Below are positions 1 to 6,053 of a stretch of DNA of 6,053 bases, in pieces. Source of the stretch: a virus; IMG/VR virus record IMGVR_UViG_3300020029_000016, positions 1-6,053 of that record; one strand, 5' to 3'. The notes under the pieces were generated by a model. That model saw only the letters and a program-made list of their open reading frames with translations, was not told the DNA's origin and made no database searches. Every line of letters begins with the position of its first letter. Position 1 is the first letter of the stretch. The translations under genes and the position numbers were made by a program.

Positions 1-121
1 ACCAACCTCGGGGGTATGCCAATTGAGCAGCCGAAAGGTTAGGCGACATAGGAACATTGCTAGAAGTCGGCGTCGGGATAGAAGCTGGAACAACGCGCAA
101 CCAACGAAGCAATGAGTTAGA
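1..121. repeat. Terminal redundancy, copy A: identical to 5933-6053. This is the circular-genome overlap and sets the unit length at 5932 nt.
   Basis: Base-by-base comparison of 1-121 (accaacctcgggggtatgcc...gcaatgagttaga) with 5933-6053 shows 121/121 identity. The repeat lies inside a coding frame that stays open across the junction. Confidence 0.97.
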
Positions 122-481: not shown

Positions 482-1552
482 TTAAGTAATTAGTTGAAGT
501 TTATAATGATCTCTCCAAAACTGAAGAATATCCATATCTAACCAAGTAGGAGGATCAAAGTCAGGCATCTTCCGAGAAGAGGCAGAAAAACGCATTATTT
601 GCTTTTGCTCCCACATATACGACGCTCTACAGGATACGGCGGAATTGAGCGCGAACCGCTCAACACACAAAGAGACAATACGCTTAACCAAAGAAGACTT
701 GCTAAAACGTGCATAAGCATCAGCAGCGGCAATCGAGCGGACAACTTCGTCTTCCGGTTTGAGATATTTACGATAATATCGAGGAATCGAGTAATTATAA
801 TTGATACGCTTCGAAAAATCGAAATAAGACCACGTCGAAACACGAGCAGAAGGGCGAGGCATATAACCAAGGAAATCACCAACGCCAGCAGATACGAATT
901 TTCGCGTATAACGGCGATGTTGGAGGAGGCAAGATAAAGGTGTAAGTTTTCCATCTACGGTAACATATTTATCCGAAATTTCTTCGGGATTAAATTGAAT
1001 TTGTTTAGTAACATACTTTACACAATAACGAGCACGTTTATGAGTAGCTTTCGCAAGCCACACAAAACCAAGGTCTCGAACAGCAGAACGAATCGTATTA
1101 TAGAGAACATTTGTGCCGAAAAGAAAGCCGTGAAAATGCAAACGAGGTTCATTTCCCATTTCAGGATGAGTGCCAAACTCTTGGAAAAAAGCGTGTTTGA
1201 ACGAATGACCGAGTTTGTGCCGCAAGCGTTCATTGAAACGACGAATGAATCGAGAAGGGTCGAGCAGTGCCTCGTTATAGTACTTCGGAGCGATTGTAAT
1301 TGTGATAAAAATAGCCTGCTGGTTATCAGCTTTACAGCGAGTAAGCTCGCGTTCAAGGCGAACAAACCAGTCATTACGCTGACGACGCAAACAGTCTTCA
1401 CACTTGCCACAAGGAACCATCAGCCACTGGCGGACGATATCCCAGGGCCGAAGAGCAAGAGCAGACTTTGCGACATCAGAGCCGTTGCGACAAGGATTCT
1501 TTTTGTCGAAATAACGACGATTACGTATCCATATGGGCGATGAACAAGGCAT
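482..1552 (-). CDS. VP4: Replication initiator protein VP4 (rolling-circle HUH endonuclease, phiX174 protein A-like)
   Basis: This is a 356-aa ORF. The N-terminus MPCSSP is typical of microvirus VP4. It has a Cys cluster CGKCEDC (aa 48-54) and motif 1 FITIT (aa 82-86, nt 1295-1309). The HUH motif LHFHGFLF has His139-Phe-His141 at nt 1130-1138, checked codon by codon. The twin-tyrosine motif YCVKYVTK (aa 176-183, nt 1004-1027) has the same YxxKYxxK pattern as phiX174 A. The start overlaps the upstream stop (TAATG, 1550-1554). The stop TAA is at 482-484. Confidence 0.93.
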   Translation of the reverse strand: MPCSSPIWIRNRRYFDKKNPCRNGSDVAKSALALRPWDIVRQWLMVPCGKCEDCLRRQRNDWFVRLERELTRCKADNQQAIFITITIAPKYYNEALLDPSRFIRRFNERLRHKLGHSFKHAFFQEFGTHPEMGNEPRLHFHGFLFGTNVLYNTIRSAVRDLGFVWLAKATHKRARYCVKYVTKQIQFNPEEISDKYVTVDGKLTPLSCLLQHRRYTRKFVSAGVGDFLGYMPRPSARVSTWSYFDFSKRINYNYSIPRYYRKYLKPEDEVVRSIAAADAYARFSKSSLVKRIVSLCVERFALNSAVSCRASYMWEQKQIMRFSASSRKMPDFDPPTWLDMDILQFWRDHYKLQLIT

Positions 1553-1847: not shown

Positions 1848-1866
1848 AATTTAAAGAACTCTTCCA
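1848..1866. repeat. 19-nt motif aatttaaagaactcttcca, contiguous copy (coding strand TGGAAGAGTTCTTTAAATT)
   Basis: Its first 12 nt recur exactly at 4186-4197 and its last 11 nt recur exactly at 4255-4265. Both of those sites lie in the other non-coding gap. Confidence 0.6.
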
Positions 1867-1887
1867 CCAAGCGGACGGGTAACTACT

Positions 1888-2211
1888 CTAGTTCCCTTTC
1901 CCTTCTTCTTCCGACGAGCTTTCATTGCGATCAAGATCAAGGTCAAACATAAGGACAAGCGTATTATCAAAAAACTCAACTTCAAAGTTCAAATACATGG
2001 TTAAGGCTCCTACAAGACGAGAAACAGAGTAGTGTTCAATATAGGGCGAATCAGAGATACTGGAATGCTCTATAAAAGACGCAATTGGCGTACCATTAAA
2101 TGCGTCAAGAGGAAGCGAAACAAACTGACCTTCCTTAATATGGCCTACCTGGACAAGATCAATCTTGAAAGCCGGATTAATGCGGCGGATAACAACATGA
2201 ACGTGTGTCAT
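1888..2211 (-). CDS. Hypothetical 107-aa protein with an acidic C-terminal tail
   Basis: ATG is at 2211 and the TAG stop at 1888-1890. The ORF is non-overlapping and sits 23 nt downstream of ORF101 on the same strand as every other gene. Its tail is DLDLDRNESSSEEEGKGN. I recognise no family. Confidence 0.6.
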   Translation of the reverse strand: MTHVHVVIRRINPAFKIDLVQVGHIKEGQFVSLPLDAFNGTPIASFIEHSSISDSPYIEHYSVSRLVGALTMYLNFEVEFFDNTLVLMFDLDLDRNESSSEEEGKGN

Positions 2212-2613: not shown

Positions 2614-3984
2614 TTAACGAGATTTGCGGGTATTGCCATACGAACTCGAATAACCACTACGATTAATCTCCGTTTTTGCGTAACCAACAACATTTCCGCG
2701 CGAATCATAACGGGTTGTCAACGAGGAACCCGCAGAACTACTGGAAGAACCGCCAGCTGAGACAGTACTAGCCGCGCGAGACATGCCTCCGCGAATTATG
2801 CCTGCACCAGCAACACTAGCGGCCGCGCCAACTAAGGCCTTAGAGATTTCAACATACGGATCAATCTTTGCGTTGCGAAGGGCAATACGAGCTTGCTCGG
2901 GAAGAAAATCAGAGGCGTTTGCCTCGTTTATAATAGTTTTATCATGGAAGTCTTTAAGCGACATTGAGATTTTAAAAGTCCTAGGGCCAGGATTTCCACG
3001 GGTGATAGGATTTTTACTTCTAAGATTTTCAGAATACTGAGGATTCGGAATTTCAATATCGAAACGCTTCTCCCAATTACGCGCGAGTTCGTTAGCAGTA
3101 TCGAGATTATTCAAGCGCAGAGACTCTATAACCTCACGAGCTTGCTCGCCGAGAATTTGATTAAAAGAACCCTGAGTATTCATCATAAAAGCTTGTGCTG
3201 ACATAACAGCGCCCAAATTCTCATTCTCTATACCCAAGCGACGAACCTCTGCAGCAACAAGAGCAGCTTGACTCTTCTTTTCGTCAATAGAGCTCAAAAG
3301 AGTAACATCGGAAATAAAGAGGGCATTCTTCTCGATATTCTCCTGCACCTTAAGAACGTCAGCAACAGCTAGATTATGCTTTGTAGCGGCCTGATCTAAA
3401 GCTATACGAGTTTGAGCCATGAGAGTATACAGTTGACTACCGACGTTTTGATCATTAATCGATTTAGCCTCAGCATTATCACGATTAGCAGCAGCATCGT
3501 TACGGCTTACCGTTGACTGTGCAACCATATTCTGCGCAATAGCAGTGGGATCACCGGGTGAAAAAGCACCAGGAGAGACAGGAGCGCCGCCTGAAGGACC
3601 AGACGCGGCAGGCATACCCGCAGAACCACCAGACATAGTAGCATTCACACCAACACCGGAAGATCCTAAAACAGCGGCAGGGGTCACGCCAGCCTTCAAG
3701 TAACGATCGAAAACCTTCGAAGGATCATTATAGGCATTCTCGTAATCGAATTGTTTCTGCCAATTAGCATAAGAGAGCTCAGACTGTTTTTGCATTTGCT
3801 CTAAAGCATATTGCTGCTGAAGCTTCATTTGCTTCTGCTGATAACGCCATTGGCGGCGAGCATTCATGCCTCCAAAAAGCTGACCAAGAGCACCACTTAT
3901 TAGACCAGTAGCGCCTGTGGAAGCAGCAGACTGGCCAAGGGCCTGGCCAAAGGATGAGGCGACAGGGGCAATGGGACCGGGCAT
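2614..3984 (-). CDS. VP2: Minor capsid / DNA pilot protein VP2 (phiX174 H-like)
   Basis: This 456-aa ORF is the second largest gene. Both termini are rich in Gly/Ala/Ser. It has a Q/K-rich helix (RRQWRYQQKQMKLQQQYALEQMQKQ). The block YLKAGVTPAAVLG resembles the conserved KAAG(L/I)NP block of microvirus VP2 proteins. A long helical central region (about aa 165-300) is compatible with a coiled-coil DNA-translocation tube. ATG is at 3984, 1 nt after the upstream stop. The TAA stop is at 2614-2616. Confidence 0.85.
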   Translation of the reverse strand: MPGPIAPVASSFGQALGQSAASTGATGLISGALGQLFGGMNARRQWRYQQKQMKLQQQYALEQMQKQSELSYANWQKQFDYENAYNDPSKVFDRYLKAGVTPAAVLGSSGVGVNATMSGGSAGMPAASGPSGGAPVSPGAFSPGDPTAIAQNMVAQSTVSRNDAAANRDNAEAKSINDQNVGSQLYTLMAQTRIALDQAATKHNLAVADVLKVQENIEKNALFISDVTLLSSIDEKKSQAALVAAEVRRLGIENENLGAVMSAQAFMMNTQGSFNQILGEQAREVIESLRLNNLDTANELARNWEKRFDIEIPNPQYSENLRSKNPITRGNPGPRTFKISMSLKDFHDKTIINEANASDFLPEQARIALRNAKIDPYVEISKALVGAAASVAGAGIIRGGMSRAASTVSAGGSSSSSAGSSLTTRYDSRGNVVGYAKTEINRSGYSSSYGNTRKSR

Positions 3985-3985
3985 A

Positions 3986-4177
3986 CTAAACGTGTGTTAA
4001 ATTGTTAGAACGAATAATGTAATCAACACGGACGGTATCAACATGAACGCCACTACGCTGTAATCTAGCTTGAGCGGAACACGAAGCAAGAAAAAAAGCG
4101 GCCAAAGCAGCAACAATAGAGGAAACGAGCGTCCAAAAAGCCTTCGATTTGTAAAATGGTTGTCTAGTATCGGACAT
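3986..4177 (-). CDS. Small putative lipoprotein / membrane protein: 63-aa precursor, 31-aa mature part. An alternative upstream ATG at 4288 would give 100 aa.
   Basis: Hand translation from ATG 4177 gives MSDTRQPFYKSKAFWTLVSSIVAALAAFFLASCSAQARLQRSGVHVDTVRVDYIIRSNNLTHV. That is a basic n-region, a 16-residue hydrophobic core, then the lipobox L-A-S-C with Cys33 (nt 4079-4081). The TAG stop at 3986-3988 lies 1 nt before the VP2 ATG. The 37-aa Arg-rich extension from 4288 would bury the signal peptide. That extension also overlaps sequence motifs shared with a region that is clearly non-coding. Confidence 0.6.
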   Translation of the reverse strand: MSDTRQPFYKSKAFWTLVSSIVAALAAFFLASCSAQARLQRSGVHVDTVRVDYIIRSNNLTHV

Positions 4178-4185
4178 GGTAGTAA

Positions 4186-4197
4186 AATTTAAAGAAC
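4186..4197. repeat. Half-copy 1 of the 19-nt intergenic motif (aatttaaagaac)
   Basis: Exact 12-nt match to 1848-1859. It lies 9-20 nt upstream of the lipoprotein ATG at 4177. Confidence 0.55.
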
Positions 4198-4254
4198 GAT
4201 AGAAAAATGCGCGGCCTCTCCTGCAGTCGTTACCAATAACCTTCAGAAATTCAC

Positions 4255-4265
4255 GAACTCTTCCA
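4255..4265. repeat. Half-copy 2 of the 19-nt intergenic motif (gaactcttcca)
   Basis: Exact 11-nt match to 1856-1866. It shares the tetranucleotide gaac with half-copy 1, and 57 nt (4198-4254) separate the two halves. Confidence 0.55.
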
Positions 4266-4310
4266 GAAGGGGTCCGCGCACGTAGCATATATCGTCAAGT
4301 AAAGGATGTA

Positions 4311-4607
4311 CTATTTTTCTTCAGAGTTAGTAGACTTCGAAGCAGGCTTTGACCTATCCAGCTCTAAATCAATAAGTTCCTGACCAACCTCGAGACCATC
4401 GAACTTATCCATACGAGAGAATGAATTAGGGTCAAAATCGATTTCAGGATTAAACTTTTCACCCTTATCAAAATCAGAAGGATCTACCAACACATCCGGA
4501 CGACCAGGGAGAACATCAACGGACCCAGAGCCGTCGAGAACGGAAAGAATACGCTGACCGCGAGAAACATAGGCGGGAGCATCTTCAAGAAGCCAATCAA
4601 GTGCCAT
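4311..4607 (-). CDS. Hypothetical 98-aa highly acidic protein (possible scaffolding-type protein)
   Basis: ATG is at 4607, 12 nt after the VP1 stop. The TAG stop is at 4311-4313. The protein has 14 Asp and 8 Glu against 11 Lys/Arg, is rich in Pro/Asp/Phe and has no hydrophobic segment. The ORF is non-overlapping and on the same strand as the other genes. Confidence 0.6.
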   Translation of the reverse strand: MALDWLLEDAPAYVSRGQRILSVLDGSGSVDVLPGRPDVLVDPSDFDKGEKFNPEIDFDPNSFSRMDKFDGLEVGQELIDLELDRSKPASKSTNSEEK

Positions 4608-4619
4608 AAAATCAATGTA

Positions 4620-6053
4620 TTAACGGTTAGACAAACGAGTTGCAAATGTTTTGTTGACCAAATTCTTCTTCTGAACAGAATACGAAAGGTTGATAAAGAA
4701 ATTATCTTCCATCTTGGAAGAAAACGGCGAGTTCACCTGATCAATATCTACAAACAGAAGGGAGTAATACTGATTGTAGCTTGCCGACAAAACACGCTGT
4801 TGAACCCAATAGGAATAGATGGGTATAGCATCGGGAGCACCCTGAAATCGAGACAACTGACCGAGGACCTCATCGTAAGAAGATCGAAACTCGTTAAAGC
4901 AAGGCTCATAAGCCACAGTTTCCGCAGTCGACGTAGTTCCGAAGCCAAATTGAAATCCAGGGACATCCTGATATCCAATATCATTATAGATCGGATTAAA
5001 ATAGTCAGGGCCGGTGTAATGGAGATAATCAGGATAAATACCTGCCCAATAGTAGATAGGGCGAATACTCAGCATGTCAATCATATAGCCAGGCTCGCGG
5101 AAATAATAAGACTGGCGACGACCAAGACGCTCGTTGAAGGCGATAGTACCACCTTGCTGACCAAGAGGGCCGTTAACGCTCGGGCCGGAAAAATTATTTT
5201 GCCCCGCTTGATTCATGACAATCTGAACATTAACCGTTTGCGAAGCACTGAAAAGCAGCTTAGGTCTATCGACGTGCTCAATCTTCGACGCAAAAAAGGT
5301 TTCCAACCAATCGTTATAGCGAGAACCGCCAGCGCCAAGCAAATCTTTATACTCTTGAAGCCGCGAAGCAATAGCCAACTGCGGTATAGTCGAGACACCA
5401 GACATAGAAACGCCTTCGGAGCTACCGACGGGAAGTAGACGGCTGTAACGATCAGGGTTCGAAGGTATAACAGCCATAGGATGGGACACAAGAAATGCTC
5501 CAAGCGTAGTAACGGTCGTAGTGCTAGGGCCGGTAGCAAACTGATTCGCAGGACCCGCGGCGGACAGCGAGGTGCTTCCAGGATAAATAGTGGAAACGGG
5601 GTAGCCATCCCTAGAAGCGGTAATCGTAGCGCCAAGGTCGGATAACAGTATCTGGGAAAAAAGGTTCCCTCTATTATACGTATTGTTCGGCGACGTCACG
5701 GCCGAAGGATAGAATTGGCTTTCAAAGTAAGCGTCCAAAAATTCGAGATTTCCGAATCTTTGCGAGAAAAACGACCGGTCTTCATTGAACTGAAGAACAT
5801 TATACGCGGCACCAGTGCTATTGGGAATGAAGTACCAACTACTGGGCCAAGCGAACGAGTAGAGACCCCACTGGGAGTAGGCGTAGTAATTGCGAACAAT
5901 ATCCCAATAAGCAAGATAAGAATCAGCGGTACACCAACCTCGGGGGTATGCCAATTGAGCAGCCGAAAGGTTAGGCGACATAGGAACATTGCTAGAAGTC
6001 GGCGTCGGGATAGAAGCTGGAACAACGCGCAACCAACGAAGCAATGAGTTAGA
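4620..6053 (-). CDS. VP1: Major capsid protein VP1, 3' part. The last 121 nt duplicate bases 1-121.
   Basis: The ORF-track entry 4620..6044 (474 aa) begins with a TTG rendered as M. That codon is really internal Leu in ...NSLLRWLRVV..., and the frame stays open to 6053 and on through base 122 up to the ATG at 478. It is the largest gene and is rich in Gly/Ser/Pro/Tyr/Phe, as expected for a microvirus jelly-roll coat protein with long loops. The TAA stop is at 4620-4622. Confidence 0.9.
   Translation of the reverse strand, partial: SNSLLRWLRVVPASIPTPTSSNVPMSPNLSAAQLAYPRGWCTADSYLAYWDIVRNYYAYSQWGLYSFAWPSSWYFIPNSTGAAYNVLQFNEDRSFFSQRFGNLEFLDAYFESQFYPSAVTSPNNTYNRGNLFSQILLSDLGATITASRDGYPVSTIYPGSTSLSAAGPANQFATGPSTTTVTTLGAFLVSHPMAVIPSNPDRYSRLLPVGSSEGVSMSGVSTIPQLAIASRLQEYKDLLGAGGSRYNDWLETFFASKIEHVDRPKLLFSASQTVNVQIVMNQAGQNNFSGPSVNGPLGQQGGTIAFNERLGRRQSYYFREPGYMIDMLSIRPIYYWAGIYPDYLHYTGPDYFNPIYNDIGYQDVPGFQFGFGTTSTAETVAYEPCFNEFRSSYDEVLGQLSRFQGAPDAIPIYSYWVQQRVLSASYNQYYSLLFVDIDQVNSPFSSKMEDNFFINLSYSVQKKNLVNKTFATRLSNR
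5933..6053. repeat. Terminal redundancy, copy B (identical to 1-121)
   Basis: 121/121 identity with the window start, read directly from the sequence. Confidence 0.97.

What the first reader, a model, noticed from the sequence alone, without database searches (positions are those of the whole stretch)
3986..4288. Tiny lipobox-bearing membrane protein between the capsid and pilot genes: candidate lysis or superinfection-exclusion factor
From ATG 4177 the ORF encodes a classic SPase II-type signal: MSDTRQPFYKSK, then a hydrophobic core, then L-A-S-C. The mature part is only 31 residues (CSAQARLQRSGVHVDTVRVDYIIRSNNLTHV). Its stop is 1 nt from the VP2 start, so it is probably co-expressed with structural genes. 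Outside the phiX174 group (protein E), microvirus lysis genes are largely unidentified. Mature lipoproteins of about 30 aa are the format of colicin lysis (bacteriocin release) proteins. Small phage lipoproteins also act as o-spanins (Rz1) or receptor-blocking exclusion factors (T5 Llp, Cor). An upstream in-frame ATG at 4288 could also give a 100-aa form with a 37-aa Arg-rich cytoplasmic extension. That would make a possible dual-start pair with different topologies.
Basis: partly seen in the sequence, partly recalled or inferred. Interest (0 to 1): 0.7.

Follow-up and report, generated by a model that had tools for sequence, protein, structure and literature searches.

The report
Small conserved lipoprotein gene in gut microviruses

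Summary
The window is a circular microvirus genome, and ATG 4177 to stop 3986 (minus strand) encodes a 63-aa protein with a basic N-terminus, a hydrophobic core, the lipobox L-A-S-C and a 31-aa mature part. Its stop lies 1 nt before the VP2 start.

It is a real gene. More than 340 homologues exist. Variation sits at third codon positions, and pN/pS is 0.15, the same as Rep. Cys33 is invariant, and no gene is overprinted on it. All 45 GenBank relatives with VP1 at least 50% identical carry a family member in the same slot. A sister clade lacks it. Alistipes prophages carry it beside a dif-like site.

The 100-aa dual-start form is rejected. The upstream 114 nt are a conserved structured non-coding element with compensatory base pairs, and the reading frame is broken in about 40% of relatives.

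No known family matches by sequence. GenBank's only name for it is the automatic label "lipoprotein".

Function is unresolved. My best guess (about 0.35) is an envelope-disrupting release factor that works like a colicin lysis protein. Superinfection exclusion is the main rival. An overprinted 119-aa membrane-protein ORF inside Rep, found here, competes as the lysis gene.

The parts
3986..4177 (-). Small prolipoprotein gene (63 codons plus TAG stop). This is the conserved product.
   Evidence: ORF and sequence. More than 340 homologues. Third-position variation dominates. pN/pS is 0.148. Synonymous diversity is uniform, so no gene is overprinted on it. IMG called the 63-aa form on this 6053-nt contig.
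4142..4177 (-). n-region of the signal peptide, residues 1-12 (MSDTRQPFYKSK), with a basic K-S-K motif.
   Evidence: K10 and K12 are invariant and S11 nearly so. pN/pS is 0.105 (computed over residues 1-13).
4091..4141 (-). Hydrophobic core, residues 13-29 (AFWTLVSSIVAALAAFF). Unusually conserved in sequence.
   Evidence: In 54 representatives of 50%-identity clusters, the 22 aa up to Cys are 66% pairwise identical, against 30% for the 26 aa after Cys. F14, W15, T16, L17, A23, A24, F28 and F29 are invariant in alignment A1.
4079..4090 (-). Lipobox L30-A31-S32-C33. C33 is the predicted acylated first residue of the mature peptide.
   Evidence: Cys is invariant in 121 close homologues and in 54 of 54 parsed representatives. 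Position -1 is always S, G or A. It is the only ORF on the coding strand that meets the PROSITE-type rule.
3989..4078 (-). Mature peptide after Cys (residues 34-63, SAQARLQRSGVHVDTVRVDYIIRSNNLTHV), with the class-I core motif G-V-H-[IV]-D-T-V-R-V-D-Y.
   Evidence: G43, H45, D47, T48, V49, R50, V51, D52 and Y53 are invariant in alignments A1 and A2. The motif is kept in an Alistipes prophage whose VP1 is only 24% identical. There are no acidic residues at +2 to +6, so no Bacteroidota surface-export signal.
3984..3988 (-). Stop/start junction TAG-t-ATG with VP2 (probable translational coupling).
   Evidence: Sequence. The spacer is 1 nt in 83 of 85 loci.
4191..4304 (-). Conserved 114-nt structured non-coding element followed by a T-run. 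It covers most of the proposed 37-aa 'extension'.
   Evidence: Mean column identity is 93% in 71 distinct copies. RNAalifold predicts 26 pairs, 7 of them with compensatory changes. Indels and insertions break the reading frame. No Rfam match.
2614..3984 (-). VP2 DNA pilot protein gene, immediately downstream.
   Evidence: phrog_8689, E = 2.3e-7.
4311..4607 (-). 98-aa acidic ORF downstream of VP1 (candidate VP3-like scaffold), upstream neighbour.
   Evidence: ORF. Conserved, pN/pS 0.145. Its position matches the VP3-like slot suggested for Alpavirinae (PMC3394797).

Best explanation
The 63-codon ORF from ATG 4177 is a real phage gene for a small prolipoprotein. The virus is a microvirus whose relatives integrate in Alistipes (Bacteroidales).

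Shown: the gene is under strong purifying selection in its own frame, its lipobox cysteine is invariant, and it sits 1 nt upstream of VP2.

Inferred: the precursor is exported by Sec, acylated on Cys33 and cleaved by signal peptidase II. That would leave a roughly 31-residue lipopeptide facing the periplasm, because it has no Bacteroidota surface-export signal.

Most likely function, also inferred: it is the phage's envelope-disrupting release factor and works like a colicin lysis (bacteriocin release) protein. A lipopeptide of about 30 residues, possibly together with its unusually conserved signal or anchor helix, would accumulate in the membranes and destabilise the envelope late in infection. 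Expression would be kept low by the terminator-like hairpin upstream and would be tied to VP2 by translational coupling. It is not a sequence relative of colicin lysis proteins.
For: - Real gene: more than 340 homologues. Codon-position entropy is 0.26 / 0.14 / 1.10. pN/pS is 0.148, against Rep 0.142, VP1 0.31 and VP2 0.53, in the same 18 genomes.
- Lipoprotein signature: it is the only ORF on the coding strand that meets the lipobox rule. Cys is invariant and position -1 is always S, G or A.
- No surface-export signal: 49 of 54 representatives have no D/E at +2 to +6, and none has two. The rule comes from PMC5080379.
- Format as in colicin lysis proteins: those are 47-aa precursors with a 19-aa signal, lipid-modified, that activate outer-membrane phospholipase A and are lethal when overexpressed. 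The ColE7 lysis gene also sits behind a terminator (PMC2896534). [quoted passage not shown]
- The signal region is more conserved than the mature peptide across the family, 66% against 30%.
- Fixed in the clade: 45 of 45 GenBank relatives with VP1 at least 50% identical have it in the same slot.
- The genome has no peptidase or endolysin, whereas the cultured B. fragilis microvirus phiHBP1 carries an M15A peptidase (PMC13064476).
- The protein stays about 97% identical between genomes whose VP1 and VP2 are only 67% and 46% identical. This points to a conserved host target rather than a receptor-specific one.
Against: - No experiment exists, and no signal-peptide predictor could be run.
- No sequence or profile similarity to colicin lysis proteins, entericidins, spanins or any lysis family.
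- AlphaFold2 gave an uninformative single helix, with pLDDT 54-64 over the mature part.
- A rival lysis candidate exists: the overprinted 119-aa hydrophobic ORF inside Rep. ORFs like it also occur in lineages that lack the lipoprotein.
- A sister clade (VP1 about 40% identical) with the same layout has no lipoprotein gene. The gene is therefore an acquired module, not the ancestral lysis gene.
- In Alistipes-type genomes it is the first gene next to the dif-like attachment site. That is a typical position for lysogenic-conversion or exclusion genes, and an awkward one for a toxic gene.
- The signal-versus-mature conservation contrast is partly an ascertainment effect. Five representatives keep the mature motif with a different signal peptide.
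Confidence: 0.35

Rival explanations
1. Superinfection exclusion or receptor masking. The periplasm-facing lipopeptide binds a host envelope protein or the incoming pilot (VP2) tube. It would block DNA delivery by related microviruses, and might also stop progeny being lost on cell debris. This is how T5 Llp, phi80/N15 Cor or the streptococcal Ltp lipoprotein work (mechanisms recalled from general knowledge).
For: - It is an acquired accessory module: absent from a sister clade with the same architecture and placed differently in two genome layouts.
- In Alistipes prophages and related circular genomes it is the first gene, 70-100 nt downstream of the dif-like site ATTATGTTAAAT.
- The mature peptide falls into several classes on a common export signal, as expected for a host- or phage-interaction module.
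- A second membrane-protein ORF is available to do the lysis.
- Weak PADLOC matches to the defence-candidate family PDC-M02A, E = 0.003-0.04.
Against: - The protein is among the most constrained in the genome, while VP1 and VP2, the receptor and entry proteins, evolve fast. A receptor-specific blocker would be expected to co-vary with them.
- It is fixed in 45 of 45 relatives in a 6-kb genome, whereas exclusion genes are usually sporadic.
- The mature part (about 30 aa) is half the size of Llp or Cor (sizes from memory).
- No homology to any exclusion family. The PADLOC hits occur in only 3 of 22 members and are marginal.
Confidence: 0.27
2. An uncleaved, membrane-anchored small protein. The conserved N-terminal helix would be the effector and would inhibit an inner-membrane host enzyme, in the way the transmembrane domain of phiX174 E inhibits MraY. 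A variant is that it jams the lipoprotein-processing or sorting pathway as a decoy substrate. In the first case the cysteine is conserved for another reason.
For: - The hydrophobic core is conserved in sequence, with W15, F14, F28 and F29 near-invariant, and 66% identity across cluster representatives against 30% for the mature part.
- pN/pS of residues 14-33 is 0.108, lower than the mature part at 0.189.
- The mature peptide can be swapped between classes while the helix stays the same.
Against: - The invariant Cys, with S, G or A always at position -1, is the signature of signal peptidase II processing and has no other obvious reason.
- Some members keep the mature motif with a quite different hydrophobic segment (P0173, P0174, P0201, P0206, P0213 and L089).
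- No similarity to protein E or any other single-gene lysis protein.
Confidence: 0.12
3. One half of a two-part envelope system with the Rep-embedded 119-aa membrane protein. The lipoprotein would sit in the outer membrane and the other protein in the inner membrane (spanin-like or holin-plus-lipopeptide), and both would be needed for release.
For: - Both genes are conserved throughout the window's clade, including the class-II genomes.
- The 119-aa ORF has two or three hydrophobic segments.
- There is only an insignificant PHROG hint to i-spanin, E = 0.2.
Against: - ORFs like the 119-aa one occur in genomes without the lipoprotein (L150, L151).
- The two genes are not adjacent or embedded in one another, as spanin pairs are.
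- There is no endolysin. The PHROG hit is not significant.
Confidence: 0.08

Closest known systems
Colicin lysis proteins (bacteriocin release proteins, Pfam Lysis_col)
   Same: Both are very small prolipoproteins: precursor about 47-63 aa, signal about 19-32 aa with a lipobox, mature lipopeptide about 28-31 aa. Both are encoded behind a terminator-like hairpin at the end of, or inside, an operon of highly expressed genes. Both have a conserved signal peptide, which in colicin lysis proteins is itself lethal (PMC2896534).
   Different: There is no detectable sequence similarity (Pfam scan at E up to 0.1 for the window protein and up to 10 for a class-II member). This gene is on a phage, not a colicin plasmid. 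The host is Bacteroidales, not Enterobacteriaceae. Dependence on an outer-membrane phospholipase is unknown. The signal peptide is longer (32 aa).
Phage exclusion lipoproteins (T5 Llp, phi80/N15 Cor, Streptococcus TP-J34 Ltp)
   Same: All are phage-encoded, Sec/SPII-exported small lipoproteins that act in the envelope. In the Alistipes-type genomes the gene has a prophage-end position.
   Different: No homology. The mature part is roughly half their size. It is fixed in its clade and strongly constrained, while the entry proteins diverge.
phiX174 protein E and other single-gene lysis proteins
   Same: It is a small membrane-targeted protein in a phage that has no endolysin. The hydrophobic N-terminal helix is conserved in sequence.
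   Different: It is not overprinted, since it has its own slot and uniform synonymous diversity. It has a lipobox. No sequence similarity. In this genome the E-like arrangement (an overprinted hydrophobic ORF) is found inside Rep instead.
o-spanins (Rz1-type outer-membrane lipoproteins)
   Same: It is a small phage lipoprotein with a short mature part that faces the periplasm.
   Different: There is no adjacent or embedded i-spanin gene and no endolysin or holin. The mature peptide is not proline-rich and has no cysteine besides the lipobox Cys.

Membership tests
Bacterial lipoproteins (Sec/SPase II substrates; PROSITE PS51257-type signal) | Positively charged n-region within the first residues | tested here: met
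   R5, K10 and K12 are present. The rule 'K/R in the first 7 residues' is met.
Bacterial lipoproteins (Sec/SPase II substrates; PROSITE PS51257-type signal) | Uncharged hydrophobic stretch followed by a lipobox [LVI..][ASTV..][GAS]-C, with Cys at position 15-35 | tested here: met
   AFWTLVSSIVAALAAFF, then L-A-S-C33. It is the only match on the coding strand (pattern recalled from memory).
Bacterial lipoproteins (Sec/SPase II substrates; PROSITE PS51257-type signal) | Lipobox cysteine conserved among homologues | tested here: met
   Cys is invariant in 121 close homologues and in 54 of 54 parsed cluster representatives. Position -1 is S (37), G (13) or A (4).
Bacterial lipoproteins (Sec/SPase II substrates; PROSITE PS51257-type signal) | Actual diacylglyceryl modification and globomycin-sensitive cleavage | not testable with these tools
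   This needs labelling or mass spectrometry. SignalP and LipoP were not available.
Colicin lysis / bacteriocin release proteins (Pfam Lysis_col) | Sequence membership in the family profile | tested here: not met
   No Pfam-A match for the window protein at E up to 0.1 or for a class-II member at E up to 10. No NCBIfam match for the window protein at E up to 10.
Colicin lysis / bacteriocin release proteins (Pfam Lysis_col) | Mature lipopeptide of about 28 aa made from a short prolipoprotein | tested here: met
   The predicted mature peptide is 31 aa. The family description is in PMC2896534.
Colicin lysis / bacteriocin release proteins (Pfam Lysis_col) | Causes quasi-lysis or leakage through outer-membrane phospholipase A | not testable with these tools
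   This requires expression assays.
o-spanin (Rz1-like) | Paired i-spanin gene (embedded, overlapping or adjacent) in a holin-endolysin cassette | tested here: not met
   The neighbours are a 98-aa acidic ORF and VP2. There is no endolysin, holin or peptidase in the genome.
Exclusion lipoproteins Llp / Cor | Sequence relationship to the known families | tested here: not met
   No significant PHROG or PADLOC family. The best PADLOC hit is PDC-M02A at E = 0.003-0.005, seen in only 3 of the 22 members of one alignment.
Exclusion lipoproteins Llp / Cor | Protects the expressing cell from infection by the same phage | not testable with these tools
   This requires plating assays on expressing cells.
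phiX174 E-type single-gene lysis protein | Overprinted on another gene, with an N-terminal transmembrane effector and no signal cleavage | tested here: not met
   The gene occupies its own slot, and normalised synonymous diversity is uniform at 0.64-0.73. The conserved lipobox argues for cleavage.

The most novel reading that the evidence does not exclude
A lipoprotein-type lysis or release system in Microviridae outside the phiX174 group. A lipopeptide of about 30 residues and its hyper-conserved (possibly stable) signal helix would be the effectors against the Bacteroidales envelope. They might act by jamming lipoprotein processing or sorting, or by working together with the Rep-embedded 119-aa membrane protein.
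Probability: 0.3. Interest if true: 0.8.

Novelty: new variant of a known kind. Interest (0 to 1): 0.58.

Why it matters
Microviruses are among the most abundant phages of the animal gut. In the papers read here, phiX174 protein E is the only microvirus lysis mechanism that has been worked out, and M15 peptidases are proposed for some others (PMC3394797, PMC9239249).

This work defines a conserved, envelope-targeted protein family that has no literature. Its only public name is an automatic GenBank label, 'lipoprotein'. The family is fixed in a whole clade of gut microviruses and is linked to Alistipes hosts.

It gives two concrete and cheap candidates to test for lysis or exclusion in Bacteroidales microviruses: this lipoprotein and the newly noticed overprinted ORF in Rep. 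If the lipoprotein is the release factor, it would be a second, mechanistically different lysis solution in the family, and a possible probe of lipoprotein handling in Bacteroidota.

It also corrects annotation: about half of the public gene calls use the spurious 100-aa form.

Tried and rejected
- Pfam, PHROGs, NCBIfam and PDB sequence searches found nothing significant for the protein. PADLOC gave only marginal hits.
- AlphaFold2 with a 19-sequence alignment gave one long helix with low confidence over the mature part. No fold search was run because the model is uninformative.
- Rfam has no family for the upstream element.
- The sigma-70 promoter and terminator scan was uninformative for a Bacteroidales phage. 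The Bacteroides -7 box TAnnTTTG is not consistently present upstream.
- An overprinted gene inside the lipoprotein gene (the 39-aa ORF at 3997-4116) is rejected, because third positions vary freely.
- The 100-aa dual-start form is rejected.
- In some Alistipes-type genomes the lipoprotein ORF runs on for about 195-220 codons, through the next gene in another frame, and ends in a basic J-like tail. A synonymous-shuffle null gave P(no stop) = 0.08-0.48 in six of the seven genomes tested. The seventh, L113, was mis-framed (2 stops counted, P = 0.01). Chance is therefore not excluded.
- Literature searches for a microvirus lipoprotein, for a lipobox-bearing single-gene lysis protein, and for PDC-M02 found nothing relevant.

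Full report
**What the window is.** All long ORFs lie on the minus strand. They include a capsid protein VP1 (4620-6044, running over the end of the circular record; PF02305 E = 1.9e-10, phrog_514 E = 9.4e-21), a pilot protein VP2 (2614-3984; phrog_8689) and a replication initiator (482-1552; PF23343, phrog_942). The nearest GenBank records are uncultured Microviridae from mammal and tortoise faeces, at most about 80% identical over half the genome.

**The observation.**
- ATG at 4177, then MSDTRQPFYKSK, then a 17-residue hydrophobic core.
- L30-A31-S32-C33, then 30 more residues.
- TAG at 3988-3986, one spacer base, then the VP2 ATG at 3984.
- An in-frame ATG at 4288 would add 37 residues.
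- A PROSITE-type lipoprotein rule (pattern from memory), applied to every possible start on the coding strand, is met only by this ORF.

**It is a real gene.**
- A search of 5.8 billion proteins found 340 homologues. tblastn found it in 42 phage records, all microviruses.
- In 82 relatives the per-site entropy is 0.26, 0.14 and 1.10 bits at codon positions 1, 2 and 3.
- In a common set of 18 genomes pN/pS is 0.148. That equals Rep (0.142) and the 98-aa ORF (0.145), and is far below VP1 (0.31), VP2 (0.53) and the other small ORFs.
- Synonymous diversity is flat along the gene (0.64-0.73). The alternative-frame 39-aa ORF inside it is therefore not under selection.
- Met1 and Cys33 are invariant in 121 aligned sequences.

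**The 100-aa form is not real.**
- In 32 of 80 IMG/VR relatives a stop lies within five codons upstream of the conserved ATG. In others the frame is shifted or truncated.
- The intergenic region exists in length classes of 133, 134 and 229-230 nt, among others, so its reading frame is not preserved.
- In Dipodfec virus 660 the 'GRAFFYRS' motif is read in a different frame from the lipoprotein.
- The DNA itself is very conserved: 93% column identity in 71 distinct copies, much higher than neighbouring synonymous sites.
- RNAalifold folds it into an outer stem and an inner hairpin. Seven pairs show compensatory changes, for example G-C, G-U and A-U at one pair, and C-G, U-A and U-G at another. 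A T-run follows directly.
- The G-U pairs mean the structure works on the coding (viral) strand, as RNA or as packaged single-stranded DNA. Rfam has no match.
- I read it as a terminator or attenuator, or possibly a complementary-strand origin. This was not resolved.
- Gene callers split about evenly between the 63-aa and 100-aa forms. IMG called the 63-aa form on this very contig.

**The family.** An exhaustive profile search of 1.84 billion cluster representatives gave 65 hits.
- Nearly all share the N-terminal module S-K-K-F-W-T-L-V-A-A-I-V-A-A-L-x-A-F-F-x-x-[SGA]-C. The mature peptide is short (26-35 aa) and falls into several classes.
- The window has class I (G-V-H-I-D-T-V-R-V-D-Y-I-I-R-S).
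- In 54 parsed representatives the 22 residues up to Cys are 66% pairwise identical and the 26 after it only 30%. Cys is invariant and position -1 is always S, G or A.
- This contrast is partly an ascertainment effect. A few members keep the class-I mature motif with a different hydrophobic segment (P0173, P0174, P0201, P0206, P0213 and the prophage in L089). Both modules therefore appear to be selected.
- No member has the acidic Bacteroidota surface-export signal (K-(D/E)2, Q-A-(D/E)2 or SDDDD; PMC5080379). 49 of 54 have no D/E at +2 to +6. The lipopeptide should therefore face the periplasm.

**Distribution and synteny.** Two genome layouts carry the gene.
- In the window's layout the order is Rep, VP1, 98-aa ORF, lipoprotein, VP2, three small ORFs.
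- All 45 GenBank microviruses with VP1 at least 50% identical to the window's have a family member in that slot. Two of them are weak matches.
- A sub-lineage (for example PQ006896, with VP1 72-73% identical) has a class-II mature peptide on the same signal.
- A sister clade (VP1 about 40%) has the same layout but only 117-141 nt between the 98-aa-like ORF and VP2, and no lipobox ORF anywhere. The gene is therefore an acquired module that then became fixed.
- In the second layout the gene precedes Rep. There it is the first gene, 70-100 nt downstream of a dif-like motif, ATTATGTTAAAT.
- Such genomes are integrated in Alistipes montrealensis and in an Alistipes metagenome-assembled genome, and in metagenome contigs next to HIT, HTH, RelA and RecA genes.
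- The class-I peptide is 73% identical over 30 residues in a prophage whose VP1 is 24% identical to the window's. It stays about 97% identical between genomes with VP1 67% and VP2 46% identical.

**Comparison with known families.**
- Nothing matches by sequence in Pfam, PHROGs, NCBIfam or the PDB.
- PADLOC gives marginal hits to the candidate family PDC-M02A, E = 0.003-0.04, in the window protein and 3 of the 22 members of alignment A3. I do not rely on these.
- AlphaFold2 was uninformative.
- The only public name is 'MAG TPA: lipoprotein [Microviridae sp.]'.
- The microvirus papers I read do not mention such a gene.

**How it most likely works.** Export, acylation and cleavage are inferred from the conserved signature. 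For function I weigh three observations.
1. The architecture and size match colicin lysis proteins. Those are 47-aa precursors that give 28-aa lipopeptides. They activate outer-membrane phospholipase A, are lethal when overexpressed, have signal peptides reported to be toxic themselves, and in ColE7 sit behind a terminator (PMC2896534).
2. The gene is as constrained as Rep while the entry proteins evolve fast. It is also fixed in its clade, and the genome has no peptidase, unlike the B. fragilis microvirus phiHBP1. This fits a core, host-machinery-directed function better than a receptor-specific exclusion factor.
3. Against this, the gene is lineage-specific and sits at the prophage end in Alistipes-type genomes. 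There is also a second candidate for lysis. Rep codons about 197-318 show a sharp drop in synonymous diversity (0.23-0.37 against 0.6-0.8). The drop coincides with a +1-frame ORF (window 595-954) of 119 aa that has a conserved ATG, the same length in 70 of 81 relatives, and two or three hydrophobic segments. Similar hydrophobic +1-frame ORFs occur in lineages without the lipoprotein.

I therefore give the release-factor model about 0.35, superinfection exclusion about 0.27, an uncleaved membrane-anchored effector about 0.12 and a two-component system about 0.08. The rest is unknown.

**Verdict.**
- The lipoprotein reading is well supported.
- The dual-start idea is refuted.
- Lysis versus exclusion remains open, with a newly found competitor for the lysis role.
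- This is a new variant of a known kind (a phage-encoded small envelope lipoprotein) in a virus family where none has been described in the literature I could search.

Noticed in passing
window 595-954 (- strand), inside Rep (482-1552): Overprinted 119-aa ORF in the +1 frame of Rep, with two or three hydrophobic segments (MENLHLYLASS...YLLALVISLVICLALLLVF...LPLLMLMHVLASLLWLSVLSLCVLSG...SIPPYPVERRI). Rep's normalised synonymous diversity falls to 0.23-0.37 over codons about 197-318, which matches the ORF's boundaries. The ATG is conserved and the length is the same in 70 of 81 relatives. It is present in the class-II genomes, and similar hydrophobic +1 ORFs occur in more distant lineages. It is not in the protein collection as a called gene and has no family match. 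It is a candidate E-like membrane or lysis protein.
   Followed up: partly
window 4191-4304 (- strand): Conserved 114-nt structured element between the 98-aa ORF and the lipoprotein gene. It has an outer 11-bp stem, an inner hairpin and then a T-run. Column identity is 93%, and 7 pairs show compensatory changes. No Rfam family matches. It could be a terminator or attenuator, or an origin for complementary-strand synthesis.
   Followed up: partly
L010 about 3034-3140 and 12 other loci (the 229-238-nt intergenic class); absent from the window: A second inserted element of about 96 nt lies between the hairpin and the lipoprotein ATG. It contains a hairpin GCGGTTCGGAGAACCGC that covaries (GCGCTCCGGAGGAGCGC in L047; GCGCTTCGGAGAAGCGC in L018). 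No Rfam hit in L010 or L047.
   Followed up: no
window 1851-1925 (- strand), overlapping the 3' end of the 107-aa ORF (1888-2211): A 24-aa, highly basic peptide gene, MKARRKKKGKGTRVVTRPLGGRVL, is conserved in relatives while the upstream open frame varies in length. The synonymous diversity of the overlapped 107-aa ORF drops to 0.20 there. Other lineages have MSRFKKRRKKSKSTRPHTQVFTVGGTRM or ...RRGGRRGKGRPKGTKSIPLGGSHL. It resembles the phiX174 J DNA-packaging protein in style (basic region, then ...VGGxx[FL]; comparison from memory). No Pfam or PHROG hit.
   Followed up: partly
L088 7977-8585; L090, L091, L093, L095, L096, L113; proteins P0176-P0219: In a subset of the Alistipes-type genomes the lipoprotein ORF has no stop. 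It runs on for about 195-220 codons, through the next gene (135-aa 'X', in another frame), and ends in the basic J-like tail, which there has no ATG of its own. A synonymous-shuffle null gives P(no stops) of 0.08-0.48 in six of the seven genomes tested, so chance is not excluded. It is unclear how the J-like peptide is expressed in those genomes.
   Followed up: partly
L088 about 7870-7900; L087, L090, L093, L094 upstream of the lipoprotein gene: A dif-like motif (GAATTAATATTnnnATTATGTTAAAT; the arm TTATGTTAAAT equals the XerD arm of E. coli dif as I recall it) lies 70-100 nt upstream of the lipoprotein ATG. A second ATTATGTT half-site abuts the ATG. This fits Xer-mediated integration next to HIT and HTH_3 genes in Alistipes.
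   Followed up: no
whole genome, 18 related genomes: VP2 (pN/pS 0.53; mean pairwise identity 54%) and VP1 (0.31; 71%) evolve much faster than Rep, the 98-aa ORF and the lipoprotein (about 0.15; 85-88%), even among genomes from one set of metagenomes. This suggests an arms race at the entry proteins.
   Followed up: no
window 1-115 and 5940-6053: The two ends of the window repeat each other: ORFs 23-115 and 5715-6047 end in the same 27 residues. This is the terminal overlap of a circular assembly, so VP1 continues across the ends.
   Followed up: no
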